A DNA stretch of 64,000 bases from the human T2T-CHM13v2.0 reference genome, Homo sapiens (GCF_009914755.1 NC_060944.1), one strand, 5' to 3'; counted from the stretch's first letter, positions 48,856 to 60,735 are shown. A program made the numbers and translations. The notes: generated from the letters alone by a model not told the origin.

Positions 48856-48876
48856 TGAGCTGTCCAGGGTCCTGAG
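48856..48876 (-). promoter_or_regulatory. Weaker RE1-like element
   Basis: Reverse complement CTCAGGACCCTGGACAGCTCA; 15/21, canonical spacing, one core mismatch. Confidence 0.5.
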
Positions 48877-49929
48877 TATTCTGTTCTAGGGGAACACAGT
48901 GCCATGCTCTGATCTGCCCACTCCTGTGCCAGGGTCACCCTACTCAAGACCCGCCCTAGTGATTGTTATGCTGACATCTGAGAGAACCAGCCTTATAGTG
49001 GGAATAGAGGATTTGACATCTGCTCAAATGGAATTGAAGTTGATTCTTACACCTTCACCCTTCCTTCTCCCTTCCACCCTCCCTCTCAGGAACGATTTGA
49101 CCATTATAATAAAAATCCAGCTTTATGTAAATACCCTATCCTCCAAGTAATAAATGCCATTAGCTGAGCCTGACTGAGCAATCGCATGCTTTTAAACATC
49201 CATTTGAAGATCTTTGAAAGCTCTCTCGAGGCTCTTGCTCATAATTCACTAAGTGGGAGTTGGTAATAACTGTGTTAAATGGCCAGGCCCTGCAATTCGC
49301 AGGAGGTGTGTCTGTTTGTGTGTTGGTGGTGGTAGTGGCAGGGGGTGCTGGGAAGAGGATGCCCTTCCTTCCATGCTGATCGGTTACTTATTTTTAAGAG
49401 TCCCACTGGGGGCTCACAGTCCTTTGATGAGCTACTAATGAAAGAGCCAGATCTAACAATTAATTTCCCCAGAGTTATTATTTATTGTTTTGGCAACATT
49501 TCTCTGAAAAGCCTTAATACTCACCTGGCTTCCTGATGGTTGAGGAGAACCATGGGTTGAGAAGAGAAATTAGTTTTACCTGTTTATTCAACAATCATGA
49601 ATTGAGCACCTGTGTGTGCCAGGCACTGCACTGGAGCAAGATACACCCCTGCCTTCAGAGAGTCCCCAGTTTGGTGGGGGGCAAGATAGGGAAGGGAGCA
49701 GGCATAACAATACAGTCTAATACCTATGATAGAGGGGACAATGTAGGGGGCTGTGGGAGCCAGGGGTGGCACATAGCCAAGATTGAAGGAGTCAGGGAAG
49801 GCTACAAGAGGAAGAGTCCTTAATGATGACCTAGAGCTAACAAGATAAATAAAAAATAGGGAAAGGAAATACTGTGAGAAGAAGGACCAGTATCTTCAAA
49901 GACTCTTAGAAGAGAAAGAGCATCCATAA

Positions 49930-50590
49930 AATTCTGGTGAGATAGTGTAGTACTGAGAACTTTGTCACTGCTGGTGGGAGTGTAAATTTGTATAGCCATT
50001 TGGGTAAACAGTTGGACGCTATGTAGTAAATTTGGAGATATGCAAGCCCTTCAACCCAGCAATTCCATTTATGTCTAGAGATACTTCTGTATGTATACAA
50101 CATTAGGAGACATATACATAATAATCAGAGCAGCATGGTCTGTAATAGGCAATGACTGGAAACAACCAAAAACCTATCAAAGGCAGAATGAGTAATTGTG
50201 GTGTAATCATACAACAGAATACTATACAGTAGTGAAAATGAATGAACCACAGTACACTTCACAACATGGATAATTTTTATATTGACACAAATACATACAA
50301 CATGACTTCATTTATATTAAATTCAAAGCAGATAAAGCTGAAATATTGTCCTGGGATATTTACTAAGGTGGTAGATATATAAAAGAAAGCAACAAAATGG
50401 TTGACCATAGTGTTTTATTTCAGGGGGAGGAAGGGACATGATTGGGGTGGATCACATGGGGAGTCTCAGGCGACATATATGTCTTGATTTGAGTGGTGCT
50501 CACATAGATGTTTAGAATTTTTAAATAAATTGTGCACATTTATATCTTTTATATGTTTCTAAGCTTGTGATATATTTCAATATTTTTGTT
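49930..50590 (+). mobile_element. Old L1M fragment
   Basis: ctgctggtgggagtgtaaatt...acccagcaattcca...ggaaacaacc. Confidence 0.65.
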
Positions 50591-50839
50591 AAAAGAGGCA
50601 AAAAAGCATCATTGTAGCCTGAGTCACTGGGTCCTTCTCTGAACATAACTGTGAGAAGCCTGGCACACCAATGGGAGGGCTGAGGGTGGCTCTCAGGGGA
50701 CCCTCTGGTGCCAGCATCCTTCTTGGCTGTGTTTCTGTGTGGTGAATAGGCAACCCCACAATGGCAGTACCAAGGGCCACATAGGATCTGAAGTTCTTTT
50801 GGATGCTTCTTAGATCATCTCCATGAGATATGGCATGGC

Positions 50840-51500
50840 TTTGTCATCCAGAAGACCACCAGATGGCTAAACAGTAAAAAAGAGCTTTATAGGTAATATC
50901 AGTTTGTAAGCTGGGAAGAGAAAGTCTCCAGCATGGATTAAAGGTGCTCTCTCTTTGAAGAGAGAAAGGACAGGTTGGATTTTCTGCCTCACAGCGTCCA
51001 TGTTACACAATAGAGTCATACATAGTCAGCAGGTTTAGGGGAAAAGGTATATACATTCATGAGGGGAGCTGAGCACATCCACGCACACTAGGTAAATATG
51101 TATGTAACATACATCCCATGTTCACTTTGGGGTGGGGTTTTAGCATTAAAATGAGGTAGAATTTGGCTCTTTATATCAAAAGGTGAACTATAGGACAGAA
51201 AGATAGTTTGCACACAGCCTCTATAAGCTAGCTGAAAATGGCTTAAGGTCTGCAATTGCTTATGATAAAAGAATGCAAGCTCAGTCCTCTGTCTAGTCAG
51301 AGCTGTAGTGGTCTGGGTTGTAAATCAGAGCTAGGAGGGGTCTGATAGCTCCTATTGTTAGGGAGCTTAGAGCTATAGGAATTTAGAAATGTGCCAGGCC
51401 AGTCAGGACCTGAACCCTTAACCAATAGGTAACTTTGTTTCCTTAACGTTTGGGTTCATCTTAGTTGATAAAGGGGCATCTATTTTGGCCTCTCAGATCT
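50840..51500 (-). mobile_element. ERV1 (MER4-group-like) solo LTR
   Basis: catcccatgttcactttggggtgg and catcttagttgataaagg motifs; about 650 bp; subfamily not determined. Confidence 0.6.
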
Positions 51501-52060
51501 CTCCTTAGTTTCCAGAGGACCCCACATGGGCCTGGGTGTGAGTTTCACAGGGTAAAATGGAGTCAGGTGATGCTCTGGGAGAACCTGAGAAGAGAGACAG
51601 CATTGCTTTGTCTTTCCACTTGCAAGTCCCCAGGATGGGTTAGGATTGTAAGGTGCTATCTGGCCCCAAAATCCAACTTCAGGGCAGGGTCTCTCCTAGA
51701 TGGACTCTGCAGTGGGCACACTAGAATGAACATTGCCATGAGGATCTTGCCTGGTTCCAGGTGACTCTGAATCTTTAACATAAATGGACCTTGATCCCAA
51801 TCTGGGGAAGAAGATGGGTGTTCCCAGGTTGTAGCAGCTGGGAAGGATCTCAGTGGTCTCTTGTATCCAGCCCTTAGGACTTTTTGGCTTTTGATTAGCT
51901 CTCAAGCCAACTTTATAGTTGTTCATTTATAAGAGTAATATATTCTTTCAGAACAATTATACAATGTGGAAATGAATATAGAAAGTATTATGGTTTCCCT
52001 TATAATCTCATGTTGCAAACAAACAAACAAAATAAACAAACAAACAAAAAACAATATTAA

Positions 52061-58210: not shown

Positions 58211-58461
58211 AGAAGACCCTTTTCCATTCTGTAGCTCATACCCTAAGTCATATCTACCAGACTGCTGTGATACTCACTAAACCATGCCAACTGCTCTCTC
58301 CCCCAAGCTAAAGAGGCCCTGAGCACCAGCCTCAGGATGTGCCAAGAAAGAAGCTATCCATAAGGACAGAGGGAAGCCCCAAAGAGGGCTCATCAGAGAA
58401 AGTCATGGGGAAGAAGAGCTGTGAAGCCATCTTATCTCCTTCCATCAAAAGCCCCTGTTCT

Positions 58462-58786
58462 GGCTGGGTGCGGTGGCTCACGCCTGTAATCCCAGCACTT
58501 TGGGAGGCTGAGGCAGGCAGATCACGAGGTCAGGAGATCAAGACCATCCTGGCTAACATGGTGAAACCCCGCTAACACGGTGAAACCCTGTCTCTACTAA
58601 AAATACAAAAAAAGTAGCCAGGTGTGGTGGCACGTGCCTGTCATCCCAGCTACTCGGGAGGCTGAGGCAGGAGAATTGCTTGAACCCGGGAGACGGAGGT
58701 TGCAGTCAGCTGAGATTGTGCCACTGGACTCCACCCTGGGTGACAGAGCGAGACTCTATTTCAAAAAAAAAAAAAAAAAAAAAAAA
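58462..58786 (+). mobile_element. Alu (AluSc/Y-like) with an internal ~19-bp duplication
   Basis: gctaacatggtgaaacccc gctaacacggtgaaaccct. Confidence 0.9.
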
Positions 58787-59947
58787 GCCCCGTTCTGTAG
58801 CTCAGGAATTATGTCCTTGAGGATTTAAATGTGTGTGTGTTGGGGGGAGGGGGAAGGGTGCCTTAGGGAGGATCTCTGAGCTTCCCCCAAAGAGTTACAG
58901 TGTATGGCAACTCTTATTTATCAAGGCTGTGTAAGCCTTCCTCCATCTGCCAATCATCTACCTTCTTCCCATCCAGTGTTAATCTCCCTAGTAGCACATG
59001 CTCTGTCATCTCCTTGTACACTGAGTGTTATCTTCAGTGTGAAACACAGGCTCAGGCACTCAGATCAGGCTATGCTACAAAGTAATGAAGCACTTCTTAT
59101 TTCCAAAGAAAAATAGATGGAGAAAACTCATCCTTAATTAATAACATGTGGCAAGTATCTGCCCTGTGTGACCACATGGGGCCTCCATGAGTTCCCTGTA
59201 TGGTCTAGAGAGAAAAGGGGATTTTCCCAAGGTCATGAAAAGTTGACAGCAAAGCTGGAGCTTGACTTTGGGGGCTTTCTGATTATTATCTTTACCTCAG
59301 ATCAGCCAAACACACAAGGAGTTTCCTGAGATAGCCTTGCATGTGACAATCTCAGAGGTCCATTTTCAAGCATTCAAGTCTTGCCCCCTCCTCAGGAATC
59401 AGCCACAGTATGACTATGGGCAGCAAGTCAGACCTCAGGTCTTCCCCAAATAGCCCATTTTTTGCCTCATGGAAGCAAACCATGCCCTAGCTGGAAAATC
59501 CAAAAAAGTGTTTTAAGCTAAAAAATGAAACCCAGTACTCTCCTTTTGCAAACATAGGGGCATGTAAACCAGTAAGTTTAAGAAGCCAACTCATACTAAA
59601 AATTCAAAAAGATACTGGATACTCAAGGTGAAAGGAGGAGATCAGAAAGGAGTGAAATGGAAGGAAAGTTAAGCTGGGATCTACTTCCTCCCAAGGTTAC
59701 AGACATTGCTATCAGCTGGCAGTGCAACTTCAGGCTAGTTATTACACCTCATTCATACTCTGTTTCCTCATTTGTAATATGGGGAATCTGATAGCAACTA
59801 TGTCATAAGGGTGGTGGGTGGGCTAAATGAGTTGAGTTCTGGCATATAAGTAACTTAGCATGGAGCACAACAAATGCTTACTTTGTGTTTGTCGTCATTG
59901 CTTCCAAGTTCCTTCTTTGGTCTCTATTGGTGTGGAGTATCTCATTG

Positions 59948-60433
59948 CTTTTTTTTTTCACAGATTTTCATTCTGTCACTTAGGCTGGAGTGCAGTGGCT
60001 CAATCATAGCTCACTGCAGCCTTGAATTTCTGGGCTCAAGAGATCCTCCTTCCTCAGTCTGCCAAGTATCTAAGACCACAGGTATGCACCACTATGCCCA
60101 GCTAAGTTTAAACAAATTTTAATTTATTTTTATGTTATTTTATTTATTGTGTAGACAGGGTCTTGCCCTGTCACCCTGGGCTGGAGTGCAGTGGCAGGAT
60201 CTTGGCTCACTACAGCCTCAATCTCCCAGGCTCAAATGATCCTCCTGCCTCAGCTCCCCAGTAGCTGAGACTACAGGCATGCACTACCATGCCCCGCTAA
60301 TTTTTGTACTTTTTGTAGGGATGGGGTTTTGTCATGTTGCCCAGGCTGGTCTCATCTGCCTTAACTCAAGCACTCCTTCTGCCTCAGCCTCTCAAAATGC
60401 TGGGATTACCGTTGTGAGCCATCATGCCTGGCC
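59948..60433 (-). mobile_element. Partial Alu followed by a full AluJ-like element
   Basis: Reverse Alu consensus twice. Confidence 0.82.
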
Positions 60434-60714
60434 ACATATCCTTCTTTATCTAAGGTCAGAAGAACCTTTAATTTCAATTAACCTTCCTTGGTCAAATAGT
60501 CTTTTCTTCAACCACTGGCCAAGCTGAAAGTAGAGACTAAAAAATACCACACCATTATTTGGCCAGCAAAGAAACTCTCCCTCCCCTACCATCACCATTT
60601 CCTCTCCTTTTCCTTTTGCCTCTTCCCCCTTTCCCTCCCTTTCTCCTCCCTCCCTTACCTTCTCCTTTCCTCCTTTCTTCCCTGCTTGCTTTGGCTTAAT
60701 GAAAGGCCTCACAG

Positions 60715-60735
60715 GACGCTGTCCGTGGTGCTGAC
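60715..60735 (-). promoter_or_regulatory. REST/NRSF RE1 element
   Basis: Reverse complement GTCAGCACCACGGACAGCGTC; 19/21 match to consensus TTCAGCACCACGGACAGCGCC. Confidence 0.9.

What the first reader, a model, noticed from the sequence alone, without database searches (positions are those of the whole stretch)
48856..60735. Three co-oriented REST/RE1 silencer motifs spread across a 12-kb gene-free stretch
Seen: minus-strand 21-mers at 60715 (19/21 to the RE1 consensus), 54186 (17/21, both half-sites intact) and 48856 (15/21). All have canonical spacing, lie about 5.3 and 6.5 kb apart, and improve in match toward the right. Known: canonical RE1 sites are rare and mark neuron-restricted genes. 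By recalled gene order, the next gene to the right is SLC32A1 (VGAT), which is restricted to GABAergic/glycinergic neurons. Inference: a distributed REST array that keeps distal SLC32A1 enhancers off outside neurons.
Basis: partly seen in the sequence, partly recalled or inferred. Interest (0 to 1): 0.8.

Follow-up and report, generated by a model that had tools for sequence, protein, structure and literature searches.

The report
Three REST silencer sites upstream SLC32A1
Three real binding sites for REST, the repressor that keeps neuronal genes off outside neurons, lie in the gap before the GABA-transporter gene SLC32A1; public data already catalogue them, so the finding is correct but largely known, and the gene they control is still untested.

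Summary
The minus-strand 21-mers at 60715-60735, 54186-54206 and 48856-48876 match the RE1 consensus at 19, 17 and 15 of 21 positions. They are the only hits within 2 mismatches of the RE1 core in 100 kb, SLC32A1 included.

All three are already in print:
- Each is a strong REST ChIP-seq peak in human ES cells, assigned to SLC32A1 (Rockowitz & Zheng 2015).
- Each is in the genome-wide RE1 reporter library of Mouri et al. 2022, with JASPAR scores of 25.5-29.6 against a 20.86 "strong" threshold.
- Scrambling the site 2 and site 3 motifs raised reporter output 1.9- to 5.9-fold.
- The RefSeq "silencer" at 54095-54295 coincides with the site 2 test oligo.

Sites 1 and 3 are also bound in mouse ES cells. 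Site 2 is human-only, and mouse has a third site of its own. Frog has an NRSE in the same gene interval.

Regulation of SLC32A1 is plausible but unproven. In mouse the nearest annotated gene is Gm14204, a lncRNA specific to GABAergic neurons.

Verdict: real, ordinary in kind, mostly known. The one unusual feature is how tightly the three sites cluster.

The parts
60715..60735 (-). RE1 site 1 (T2T chr20:40,422,715-40,422,735). Canonical 21-bp REST motif, 19/21 to consensus.
   Evidence: FIMO MA0138.2 score 29.56 (p 6.9e-11) and MA0138.1 27.14, as library member REST_chr20:37321114-37321314 (hg19). The oligo sequence printed matches window 60625-60824. It was not in the motif-scramble set (0 occurrences in Table S9).
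54186..54206 (-). RE1 site 2 (T2T chr20:40,416,186-40,416,206). Canonical REST motif, 17/21, both half-sites intact.
   Evidence: FIMO MA0138.1 29.28 (p 6.8e-11); MA0138.2 27.63 (score column of the Table S14 row). Scrambling the motif in GM12878 raised reporter log2FC from 1.06 to 3.07 with En09 and from 1.15 to 3.72 with En19 (column header).
48856..48876 (-). RE1 site 3 (T2T chr20:40,410,856-40,410,876). REST motif, 15/21 overall but 14/15 in the core.
   Evidence: FIMO MA0138.1 27.27 (p 5.3e-10) and MA0138.2 25.49 (p 2.3e-9). Motif scramble: 0.90 to 2.22 (En09) and 1.56 to 2.51 (En19). It fails the older degenerate NRSE pattern at one position.
60568..60896 (.). Human ES-cell REST ChIP-seq peak over site 1 (hg19 chr20:37321058-37321386), score 3410, 'conserved' (a peak is also called at the syntenic place in mouse ES cells).
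   Evidence: Window coordinates are my conversion from the oligo-to-window match (offset 37,260,490).
54047..54349 (.). Human ES-cell REST peak over site 2 (hg19 chr20:37314538-37314840), score 5078, the strongest of the three. 'Non-conserved': alignable to mouse, but no mouse ES-cell peak.
   Evidence: Coordinates converted with offset 37,260,491.
48720..49018 (.). Human ES-cell REST peak over site 3 (hg19 chr20:37309212-37309510), score 3027, 'conserved'.
   Evidence: Coordinates converted with offset 37,260,492.
54095..54295 (.). RefSeq 'silencer' feature. It coincides with the 200-bp MPRAduo test oligo centred on site 2.
   Evidence: The hub table gives 54095-54295. The library design places the motif at nt 91-111, extended by 90 and 89 bp, which predicts 54096-54295. 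The hg19 id is chr20:37314586-37314786. That the RefSeq feature derives from this paper is inferred from the coincidence, not read from RefSeq.
60015..61238 (.). RefSeq 'enhancer' feature that contains site 1 and the weak fourth motif.
   Evidence: Hub table only. I could not determine its experimental source.
60862..60882 (.). Weak REST-like motif about 147 bp from site 1, tested separately as REST_chr20:37321261-37321461 (oligo = window 60772-60971).
   Evidence: FIMO MA0138.1 score 5.40 (p 4.8e-5), far below the 20.86 threshold. Scramble effect +0.27 (En09) and +0.91 (En19). Probably not a REST site in its own right.
53751..54250 (.). Local CpG-retaining patch around site 2.
   Evidence: 16 CpG, observed/expected 0.70. 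Every 500-bp window of 46-64 kb that does not overlap this patch is at or below 0.30. This fits a constitutively unmethylated, factor-bound spot; that reading is an inference.

Best explanation
The three 21-mers are genuine canonical RE1/NRSE silencer elements occupied by the zinc-finger repressor REST in non-neuronal and pluripotent cells. Each binds REST through its two half-sites (TCAGCACC and GGACAGC, two bases apart). By established knowledge, REST then recruits SIN3-HDAC and CoREST-LSD1-G9a corepressors, which deacetylate and compact the surrounding chromatin.

Together they form an unusually tight homotypic cluster 32-44 kb upstream of SLC32A1. The cluster's most likely job is to keep the GABAergic-neuron-specific SLC32A1 domain shut wherever REST is present. 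That domain includes SLC32A1 itself, possibly an upstream antisense lncRNA like mouse Gm14204, and the regulatory DNA the sites sit in.

Shown: motif, REST occupancy, and motif-dependent repression on a plasmid for sites 2 and 3. Inferred: corepressor recruitment at these particular sites, and the identity of the repressed gene.

My odds: REST-bound RE1 elements about 0.97; intrinsic silencer activity about 0.85; SLC32A1 among the endogenous targets about 0.5.
For: Motif:
- Only 3 hits within 1 mismatch of the core in 64 kb, against 0.00 expected.
- Still only these three in 100 kb that includes SLC32A1.
- Published FIMO scores are 25.5-29.6, against the empirically derived 20.86 threshold above which RE1s silence.

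Occupancy:
- All three are REST peaks in human ES cells, with scores 3027, 5078 and 3410.
- All three met the library criterion of a canonical motif plus an ENCODE REST peak in at least 1 of GM12878, K562, HepG2 and SK-N-SH.

Function:
- In GM12878, scrambling only the 21-bp motif raised reporter log2FC by +2.01 and +2.56 for site 2, and by +1.32 and +0.95 for site 3, with two responsive enhancers.
- With the inactive control enhancer En02 the changes were small, mixed in sign and untested for FDR (-0.28 for site 2, +0.37 for site 3).
- The RefSeq silencer coincides with the site 2 oligo.

Evolution:
- Sites 1 and 3 have REST peaks at syntenic places in mouse ES cells.
- Mouse also carries three peaks in the Arhgap40-Slc32a1 interval.
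- Xenopus tropicalis has an NRSE 8.3 kb from slc32a1 and 16.3 kb from arhgap40.

Target:
- SLC32A1 is the nearest transcription start and is neuron-restricted.
- It has no RE1-like motif of its own in promoter or gene.
Against: - No experiment seen links these sites to SLC32A1 expression. The five RE1 knock-outs in Mouri et al. that are named lie elsewhere, and neither gene name occurs in the supplement files held.
- The scramble effects have FDRs of about 0.05-0.11 (Skew_logFDR 0.97-1.27). None passes 1% in the one cell line I could read.
- Site 1, the best motif, was not in the scramble set.
- The full result table (Table S6) was too large to open, so I do not know whether sites 1 and 3 scored as silencers.
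- The assay is episomal.
- In mouse neurons a REST decoy prevented an activity-induced rise of Slc32a1 mRNA instead of raising it, which the authors explain as an indirect route.
- Site 1 lies inside a RefSeq 'enhancer', so the surrounding DNA is not purely repressive.
- The frog NRSE is on the same strand as the genes while the human motifs are on the opposite strand, so positional orthology with frog is not established.
Confidence: 0.6

Rival explanations
1. The sites are real REST silencers, but their direct target is a local non-coding transcription unit: a human counterpart of mouse Gm14204, an intergenic, opposite-strand lncRNA specific to GABAergic neurons. Any effect on SLC32A1 is secondary or absent.
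For: All three mouse ES-cell REST peaks in the syntenic interval are assigned to Gm14204 as nearest gene. Gm14204 is described as lying near Slc32a1, transcribed from the opposite strand, and restricted to GABAergic neurons. The human motifs are 32-44 kb from the SLC32A1 start, and REST effects are often local.
Against: RefSeq on T2T annotates no gene between ARHGAP40 and SLC32A1 in the window (hub table). There is no CpG island or promoter-like block in 46-64 kb apart from the small patch at site 2. I could not look up the exact position of Gm14204 relative to the mouse peaks or any human orthologue.
Confidence: 0.2
2. REST binds all three sites, but the binding has no consequence for neighbouring genes. 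SLC32A1 stays silent outside GABAergic neurons because its activators are absent or other silencing systems act, so removing REST or the motifs changes nothing measurable.
For: In the CRISPR knock-outs of five strong RE1s, only 3 raised a nearby gene, 1 lowered one and 1 did nothing. No paper found reports SLC32A1 de-repression after REST loss. The REST decoy in neurons did not raise Slc32a1.
Against: Binding at two sites has been retained between human and mouse, and each lineage has added a third, strongest site. Frog has an NRSE in the same interval. The cluster is the tightest of its kind in the genome. All this is hard to explain without selection, although it does not show which gene is affected.
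Confidence: 0.17
3. The sites act on ARHGAP40, whose 3' end lies 30.5 kb to the left, rather than on anything to the right.
For: ARHGAP40 is the other flanking gene. The frog NRSE also lies between the two genes.
Against: The ARHGAP40 start is about 79-91 kb away, against 32-44 kb for SLC32A1 (hub table). Published nearest-gene assignment is SLC32A1. From recall, not from a call, ARHGAP40 is not known as a neuron-restricted gene.
Confidence: 0.03
4. The motifs are chance look-alikes with no factor bound.
For: By raw identity, site 3 (15/21) is no better than six repeat-derived 21-mers in the window.
Against: 0 of 100 shuffles give even one core hit within 1 mismatch. ChIP-seq peaks are centred on all three. 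Repression is motif-dependent.
Confidence: 0.005

Closest known systems
Canonical RE1/NRSE silencers bound by REST/NRSF, as catalogued genome-wide (Mouri et al. 2022, PMC9903721; Rockowitz & Zheng 2015, PMC4499139)
   Same: 21-bp bipartite motif with canonical spacing, REST ChIP-seq peaks, JASPAR scores above the functional threshold, and motif-dependent repression. These three sites are literal entries in both data sets.
   Different: Nothing in kind. The differences are in arrangement only: three strong sites within 11.9 kb, all distal (32-44 kb) from the nearest start, and none at the promoter.
Dual RE1 sites of KCC2 (SLC12A5)
   Same: More than one RE1 guards a single gene of the GABAergic signalling system. 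I saw this only as a review sentence with its citation (PMC6303784).
   Different: The KCC2 sites flank the transcription start. Here the sites are far upstream and their target is unproven.
Xenopus tropicalis NRSE632 in the arhgap40-slc32a1 interval (PMC4430910, supplementary file 1)
   Same: Same flanking genes, same kind of motif, upstream of slc32a1.
   Different: There is one motif rather than three, it lies 8.3 kb from slc32a1, and it is on the same strand as the genes whereas the human motifs are on the opposite strand. It is a motif prediction only, with no binding data, and sequence orthology was not tested.
Mouse Arhgap40-Slc32a1 REST peaks (mm10 chr2:158,570,446 / 158,584,707 / 158,595,167)
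   Same: Three ES-cell REST peaks in the syntenic interval, two of them at places syntenic with human sites 1 and 3.
   Different: The third site is in a different place: closest to Slc32a1 in mouse, between the shared pair in human. The peaks are assigned to the lncRNA Gm14204. Which mouse peak pairs with which human site is inferred from order only.
'Super-silencers' (cooperating silencer components, PMC11746141)
   Same: Several silencer elements near one developmental gene, with REST inhibition used as a perturbation. I saw this in the search listing and abstract only.
   Different: As described there, super-silencers cooperate through chromatin interactions at FGF18, with EZH2 inhibition as a perturbation. 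Cooperation among the three RE1s here is untested.

Membership tests
Canonical RE1/NRSE (REST-binding silencer element) | 21-bp bipartite motif with both half-sites and the canonical 2-base spacer, scoring as a strong match to the REST matrix | tested here: met
   The core is matched at 15/15, 15/15 and 14/15 positions with spacer 2. Published FIMO scores against JASPAR MA0138.1/.2 are 25.5-29.6 (p 2e-9 to 7e-11), against a threshold of 20.86. Sites 1 and 2 also fit the older degenerate NRSE pattern; site 3 misses it at one position.
Canonical RE1/NRSE (REST-binding silencer element) | REST occupancy in vivo in REST-expressing cells | tested here: met
   Read from published tables, not from raw tracks. 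Human ES-cell REST peaks cover all three sites. All three met the criterion of a motif plus an ENCODE REST peak in at least 1 of 4 lines. I could not see which of the four lines.
Canonical RE1/NRSE (REST-binding silencer element) | Repression of a linked reporter that depends on the motif | tested here: inconclusive
   Sites 2 and 3: scrambling the motif raised expression with both responsive enhancers in GM12878, by +0.95 to +2.56 log2, at FDR about 0.05-0.11. Site 1 was not scrambled. The full activity table (Table S6) and the other three cell lines were not readable. The RefSeq silencer coincides with the site 2 oligo.
Canonical RE1/NRSE (REST-binding silencer element) | De-repression of an endogenous neighbouring gene when the motif or REST is removed | not testable with these tools
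   No such experiment was found in five searches. The locus is not named among the CRISPR targets.
Canonical RE1/NRSE (REST-binding silencer element) | Recruitment of REST corepressors (SIN3A, CoREST/RCOR1, HDAC, EHMT2) at the site | not tested
   The co-localisation table of Mouri et al. (Table S11) was too large to open, and no ChIP tracks are available here.
Evolutionarily conserved REST target site | REST peak at the syntenic position in another mammal | tested here: met
   Met for sites 1 and 3 ('conserved'). Not met for site 2 ('non-conserved', alignable). I could not check base-level conservation because no vertebrate alignment is available.
Cooperative silencer cluster ('super-silencer'-like array) | Elements act together on one target: non-additive effect of combined deletion, or mutual chromatin contacts | not testable with these tools
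   Only the clustering is shown. This is the tightest triple among 291 genome-wide core matches, 11,859 bp against 40,441 bp for the next.

The most novel reading that the evidence does not exclude
The block is a REST-gated control region for the vesicular GABA transporter locus in which selection maintains the number of RE1 sites rather than their positions. Human and mouse each keep two shared sites and have each independently gained a third, and in both species the gained site is the strongest REST peak (human 5078 against 3027 and 3410; mouse 525 against 422 and 328). Frog already has an NRSE in the same interval. On this reading, three strong sites are needed to overpower potent GABAergic enhancers or a lncRNA promoter embedded in the block, and single-site deletions would be buffered. 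That would make the locus a natural test case for dosage and compensatory turnover of silencers.
Probability: 0.15. Interest if true: 0.55.

Novelty: already known. Interest (0 to 1): 0.3.

Why it matters
SLC32A1 (VGAT) defines inhibitory neurons, and its regulatory DNA is being mined for vectors that target GABAergic cells (PMC9974971). Three strong, partly conserved REST silencers 32-44 kb upstream mark where non-neuronal silencing of this locus is probably enforced, and where GABAergic enhancers may lie.

The elements themselves are catalogued, so the sites are not new. This check adds four things:
- All three are bound, and two are functionally motif-dependent.
- The weakest-looking site is a strong, conserved one.
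- The cluster is the tightest of its kind in the genome.
- Human and mouse show matched gain of a third site.

The open, testable question is which gene the sites silence, and whether they act redundantly.

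Tried and rejected
- Duplication origin is rejected. The 200-bp flanks of the three sites show no similarity beyond shuffles (z at most 2.9, and that only when the motif itself is included).
- A search for non-canonical half-site spacings (0-12 bases) and for further RE1-like motifs over 100 kb, SLC32A1 included, found only the three sites.
- An RE1 at the SLC32A1 promoter or in the gene is rejected. The best matches there have 3 core mismatches, which is chance level.
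- A phrase search meant to jump to specific rows of Table S9 found nothing, so I read file parts by number instead.
- Not readable: Table S6 (full MPRAduo results), Tables S11 and S13 of PMC9903721 (too large), the HepG2, K562 and SK-N-SH portions of Tables S9 and S14 (files cut), and supplementary file 1 of PMC4499139 (not searched by the tool). These may hold the site 1 result and the cell-type pattern.
- Searches for REST-loss effects on SLC32A1/VGAT and for ARHGAP40 with REST gave no direct test. PMC7698048 and PMC11816724 mention the terms in unrelated contexts.
- SLC32A1 occurs only in the frog table among the PMC4430910 supplements held, not in the shared human-mouse-frog list. I could not tell why.
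- The protein, RNA-family, phage and plasmid tools have no bearing on a human intergenic motif and were not used.

Full report
**What is in the sequence.** Read on the minus strand, 60735..60715, 54206..54186 and 48876..48856 carry 21-mers that match the RE1 consensus at 19, 17 and 15 of 21 positions. The consensus is printed as the decoy oligonucleotide in PMC8639147 (passages seen). The spacings are 5,330 and 6,529 bp. The sites lie 30.5 kb past the end of ARHGAP40 and 31.9-43.8 kb before the start of SLC32A1 (hub table).

**More than chance.**
- The informative core, TCAGCACCNNGGACAGC, is matched exactly by sites 1 and 2 and with one mismatch by site 3.
- These are the only matches within 1 or 2 mismatches on either strand of the 64-kb window. 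The shuffle expectations are 0.00 and 0.15, and 0 of 100 shuffles reach three matches.
- The next-best hits have 3 mismatches; there are 4 of them.
- I extended the scan 36 kb to the right, through SLC32A1. This added only two 3-mismatch hits inside the gene and no non-canonical half-site arrangement.
- Raw identity is a poor guide for site 3. Seven window 21-mers reach 15/21, six of them in a CCA-rich repeat. Site 3 is distinguished by where its mismatches fall.

**The sites are already catalogued as REST-bound.**
- Rockowitz & Zheng 2015 (PMC4499139; passages of the main text and searches of supplementary file 2) list human ES-cell REST ChIP-seq peaks at hg19 chr20:37309212-37309510 (score 3027), 37314538-37314840 (score 5078) and 37321058-37321386 (score 3410). 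All are assigned to SLC32A1.
- Mouri et al. 2022 (PMC9903721; named sections and supplements) built a library of 8,436 sites that have a canonical motif and overlap an ENCODE REST peak in at least one of GM12878, K562, HepG2 and SK-N-SH. The motif sits at nucleotides 91-111 of each 200-bp oligo.
- All three sites are members, under the ids REST_chr20:37309257-37309457, 37314586-37314786 and 37321114-37321314.
- The oligo sequences printed for sites 1 and 3 match the window letter for letter where I compared them.
- Their FIMO scores are 29.56/27.14 for site 1, 27.63/29.28 for site 2 and 25.49/27.27 for site 3 (MA0138.2/MA0138.1). All are above the 20.86 'm-value' that the paper derives as the boundary of functional motifs.
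- So the site with the weakest consensus count is a strong motif by the matrix.
- A fourth library element 147 bp from site 1 has a score of only 5.4 and is probably a by-product of the same peak.

**Function, as far as it has been tested.**
[quoted passage not shown] Only the GM12878 portion is held.
- Site 2 goes from 1.06 to 3.07 with enhancer En09 and from 1.15 to 3.72 with En19.
- Site 3 goes from 0.90 to 2.22 with En09 and from 1.56 to 2.51 with En19.
- With the inactive control enhancer En02 the changes are small, mixed in sign and carry no FDR (-0.28 for site 2, +0.37 for site 3).
- The FDRs are about 0.05-0.11, so each single test is suggestive rather than decisive, but the direction is consistent.
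- Site 1 was not in the scrambled subset.
- The full activity table was too large to open.
- The RefSeq 'silencer' at 54095-54295 coincides with the site 2 oligo, which the design predicts at 54096-54295. I take this to mean the feature derives from that screen; this is an inference.
- Site 1 lies inside a RefSeq 'enhancer' (60015-61238) whose source I could not determine.

**Evolution.**
- In the Rockowitz tables, 'conserved' means a peak is called at the syntenic place in ES cells of both species. 'Non-conserved' means the place is alignable but the peak is present in one species only.
- Sites 1 and 3 are conserved. Site 2 is non-conserved and is the strongest human peak.
- The mouse Arhgap40-Slc32a1 interval is mm10 chr2:158,550,628-158,611,242 (PMC9974971).
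- It holds two conserved peaks, at 158,570,446 (score 422) and 158,584,707 (score 328). It also holds a mouse-only peak at 158,595,167 (score 525), which is the strongest in mouse.
- Each species therefore has three peaks: two shared, plus one of its own that is the strongest. This is a single locus, so it is an anecdote, not a trend.
- In Xenopus tropicalis a predicted NRSE lies 8,261 bp from slc32a1 and 16,330 bp from arhgap40 (supplementary file 1 of PMC4430910). It is on the same strand as the genes, unlike in human, and its orthology is untested.
- The flanks of the three human sites are unrelated to each other, so the cluster did not arise by local duplication.
- Site 2 sits in the only CpG-retaining patch of the 46-64 kb stretch.

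**How unusual the cluster is.**
- The exact core occurs 240 times in the T2T genome, against 0 for the reversed control.
- Six pairs lie within 10 kb, against 0.18 expected under uniform placement. Two of the six are tandem copies under 100 bp apart. The pair here is one of the six.
- Adding the site 3 variant of the core (51 genome-wide hits, control 1) gives 291 hits. The tightest triple among them is this locus at 11,859 bp. The next two, both on chromosome 19, span 40,441 and 42,611 bp. The uniform-null chance of any triple within 12 kb is 0.0006.
- Caveat: the variant was chosen because site 3 has it, so this ranking is post hoc. A full matrix scan is needed.
- The frog paper reports that 80-90% of putative target genes have a single NRSE within 100 kb (figure legend).

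**What it regulates.** This part is inference.

In favour of SLC32A1:
- It has the nearest start and is neuron-restricted.
- It has no RE1 of its own.
- Published nearest-gene assignment points to it.

Against, or at least not in favour:
- I found no deletion or REST-loss experiment reporting SLC32A1 de-repression.
- The knocked-out RE1s named in Mouri et al. are elsewhere, and neither gene name occurs in the supplements held.
- In mouse neurons a REST decoy blocked, rather than mimicked, an activity-induced rise of Slc32a1, which the authors attribute to an indirect Npas4-BDNF route.

A concrete alternative target exists. The mouse peaks are assigned to Gm14204, described as an intergenic lncRNA near Slc32a1, transcribed from the opposite strand and restricted to GABAergic neurons (passages of PMC8048821 and PMC11040102). 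RefSeq shows no human gene here, so 'gene-free' may reflect annotation.

**Verdict.**
Its refutation test (no REST peaks) fails.
- The link to SLC32A1 enhancers remains a reasonable but untested hypothesis.
- In kind this is textbook REST biology and the individual elements are in public tables and, for one, in RefSeq. Novelty is therefore 'already known' and interest is modest.
- The points worth carrying forward are the exceptional tightness of the cluster, the matched gain of a third site in human and mouse, and the possible lncRNA target.

Noticed in passing
window 60600-60690: An ~85-90-bp pure polypyrimidine (CT-rich) tract lies immediately beside site 1 on the plus strand, inside the REST peak and the RefSeq enhancer.
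   Followed up: no
window ~53950-53972: An AT-rich TTAATTAA-type homeodomain-like motif sits about 220 bp from site 2, within the CpG-retaining patch. It might be a binding site for a GABAergic homeobox factor next to the silencer. That reading comes from recall of motif types, not from a scan.
   Followed up: no
window 20780-21500: A CCA/CACCAC-rich repetitive stretch just past the ARHGAP40 3' end produces most of the window's 14-15/21 pseudo-matches to the RE1 consensus. It shows why raw identity counts mislead.
   Followed up: partly
window 13875-13994 and 42608-42717: The two other RefSeq 'silencer' features in the window contain no RE1-like core, even at 3 mismatches. They must rest on a different assay or factor.
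   Followed up: partly
window 48766-60824 versus hg19: The window-to-hg19 offset changes by 1 bp between sites 3 and 2 and by 1 bp again between sites 2 and 1 (offsets 37,260,492 / 491 / 490). T2T therefore differs from hg19 by two single-base indels across the 11.9-kb block.
   Followed up: no
G000 C19:15139654/15141054; C19:58310912/58314706; C9:150143934/150149883; C5:177384344/177384403; C20:33693186/33693222: These are the other five genome-wide pairs of exact RE1 cores within 10 kb. Two are tandem copies less than 100 bp apart. They may be worth a look as multi-RE1 loci.
   Followed up: no
mouse mm10 chr2:158,570,446-158,595,390 (from PMC4499139 supplement): All three mouse ES-cell REST peaks in the syntenic interval are assigned to the GABAergic lncRNA Gm14204. 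No human counterpart is annotated in the window.
   Followed up: partly
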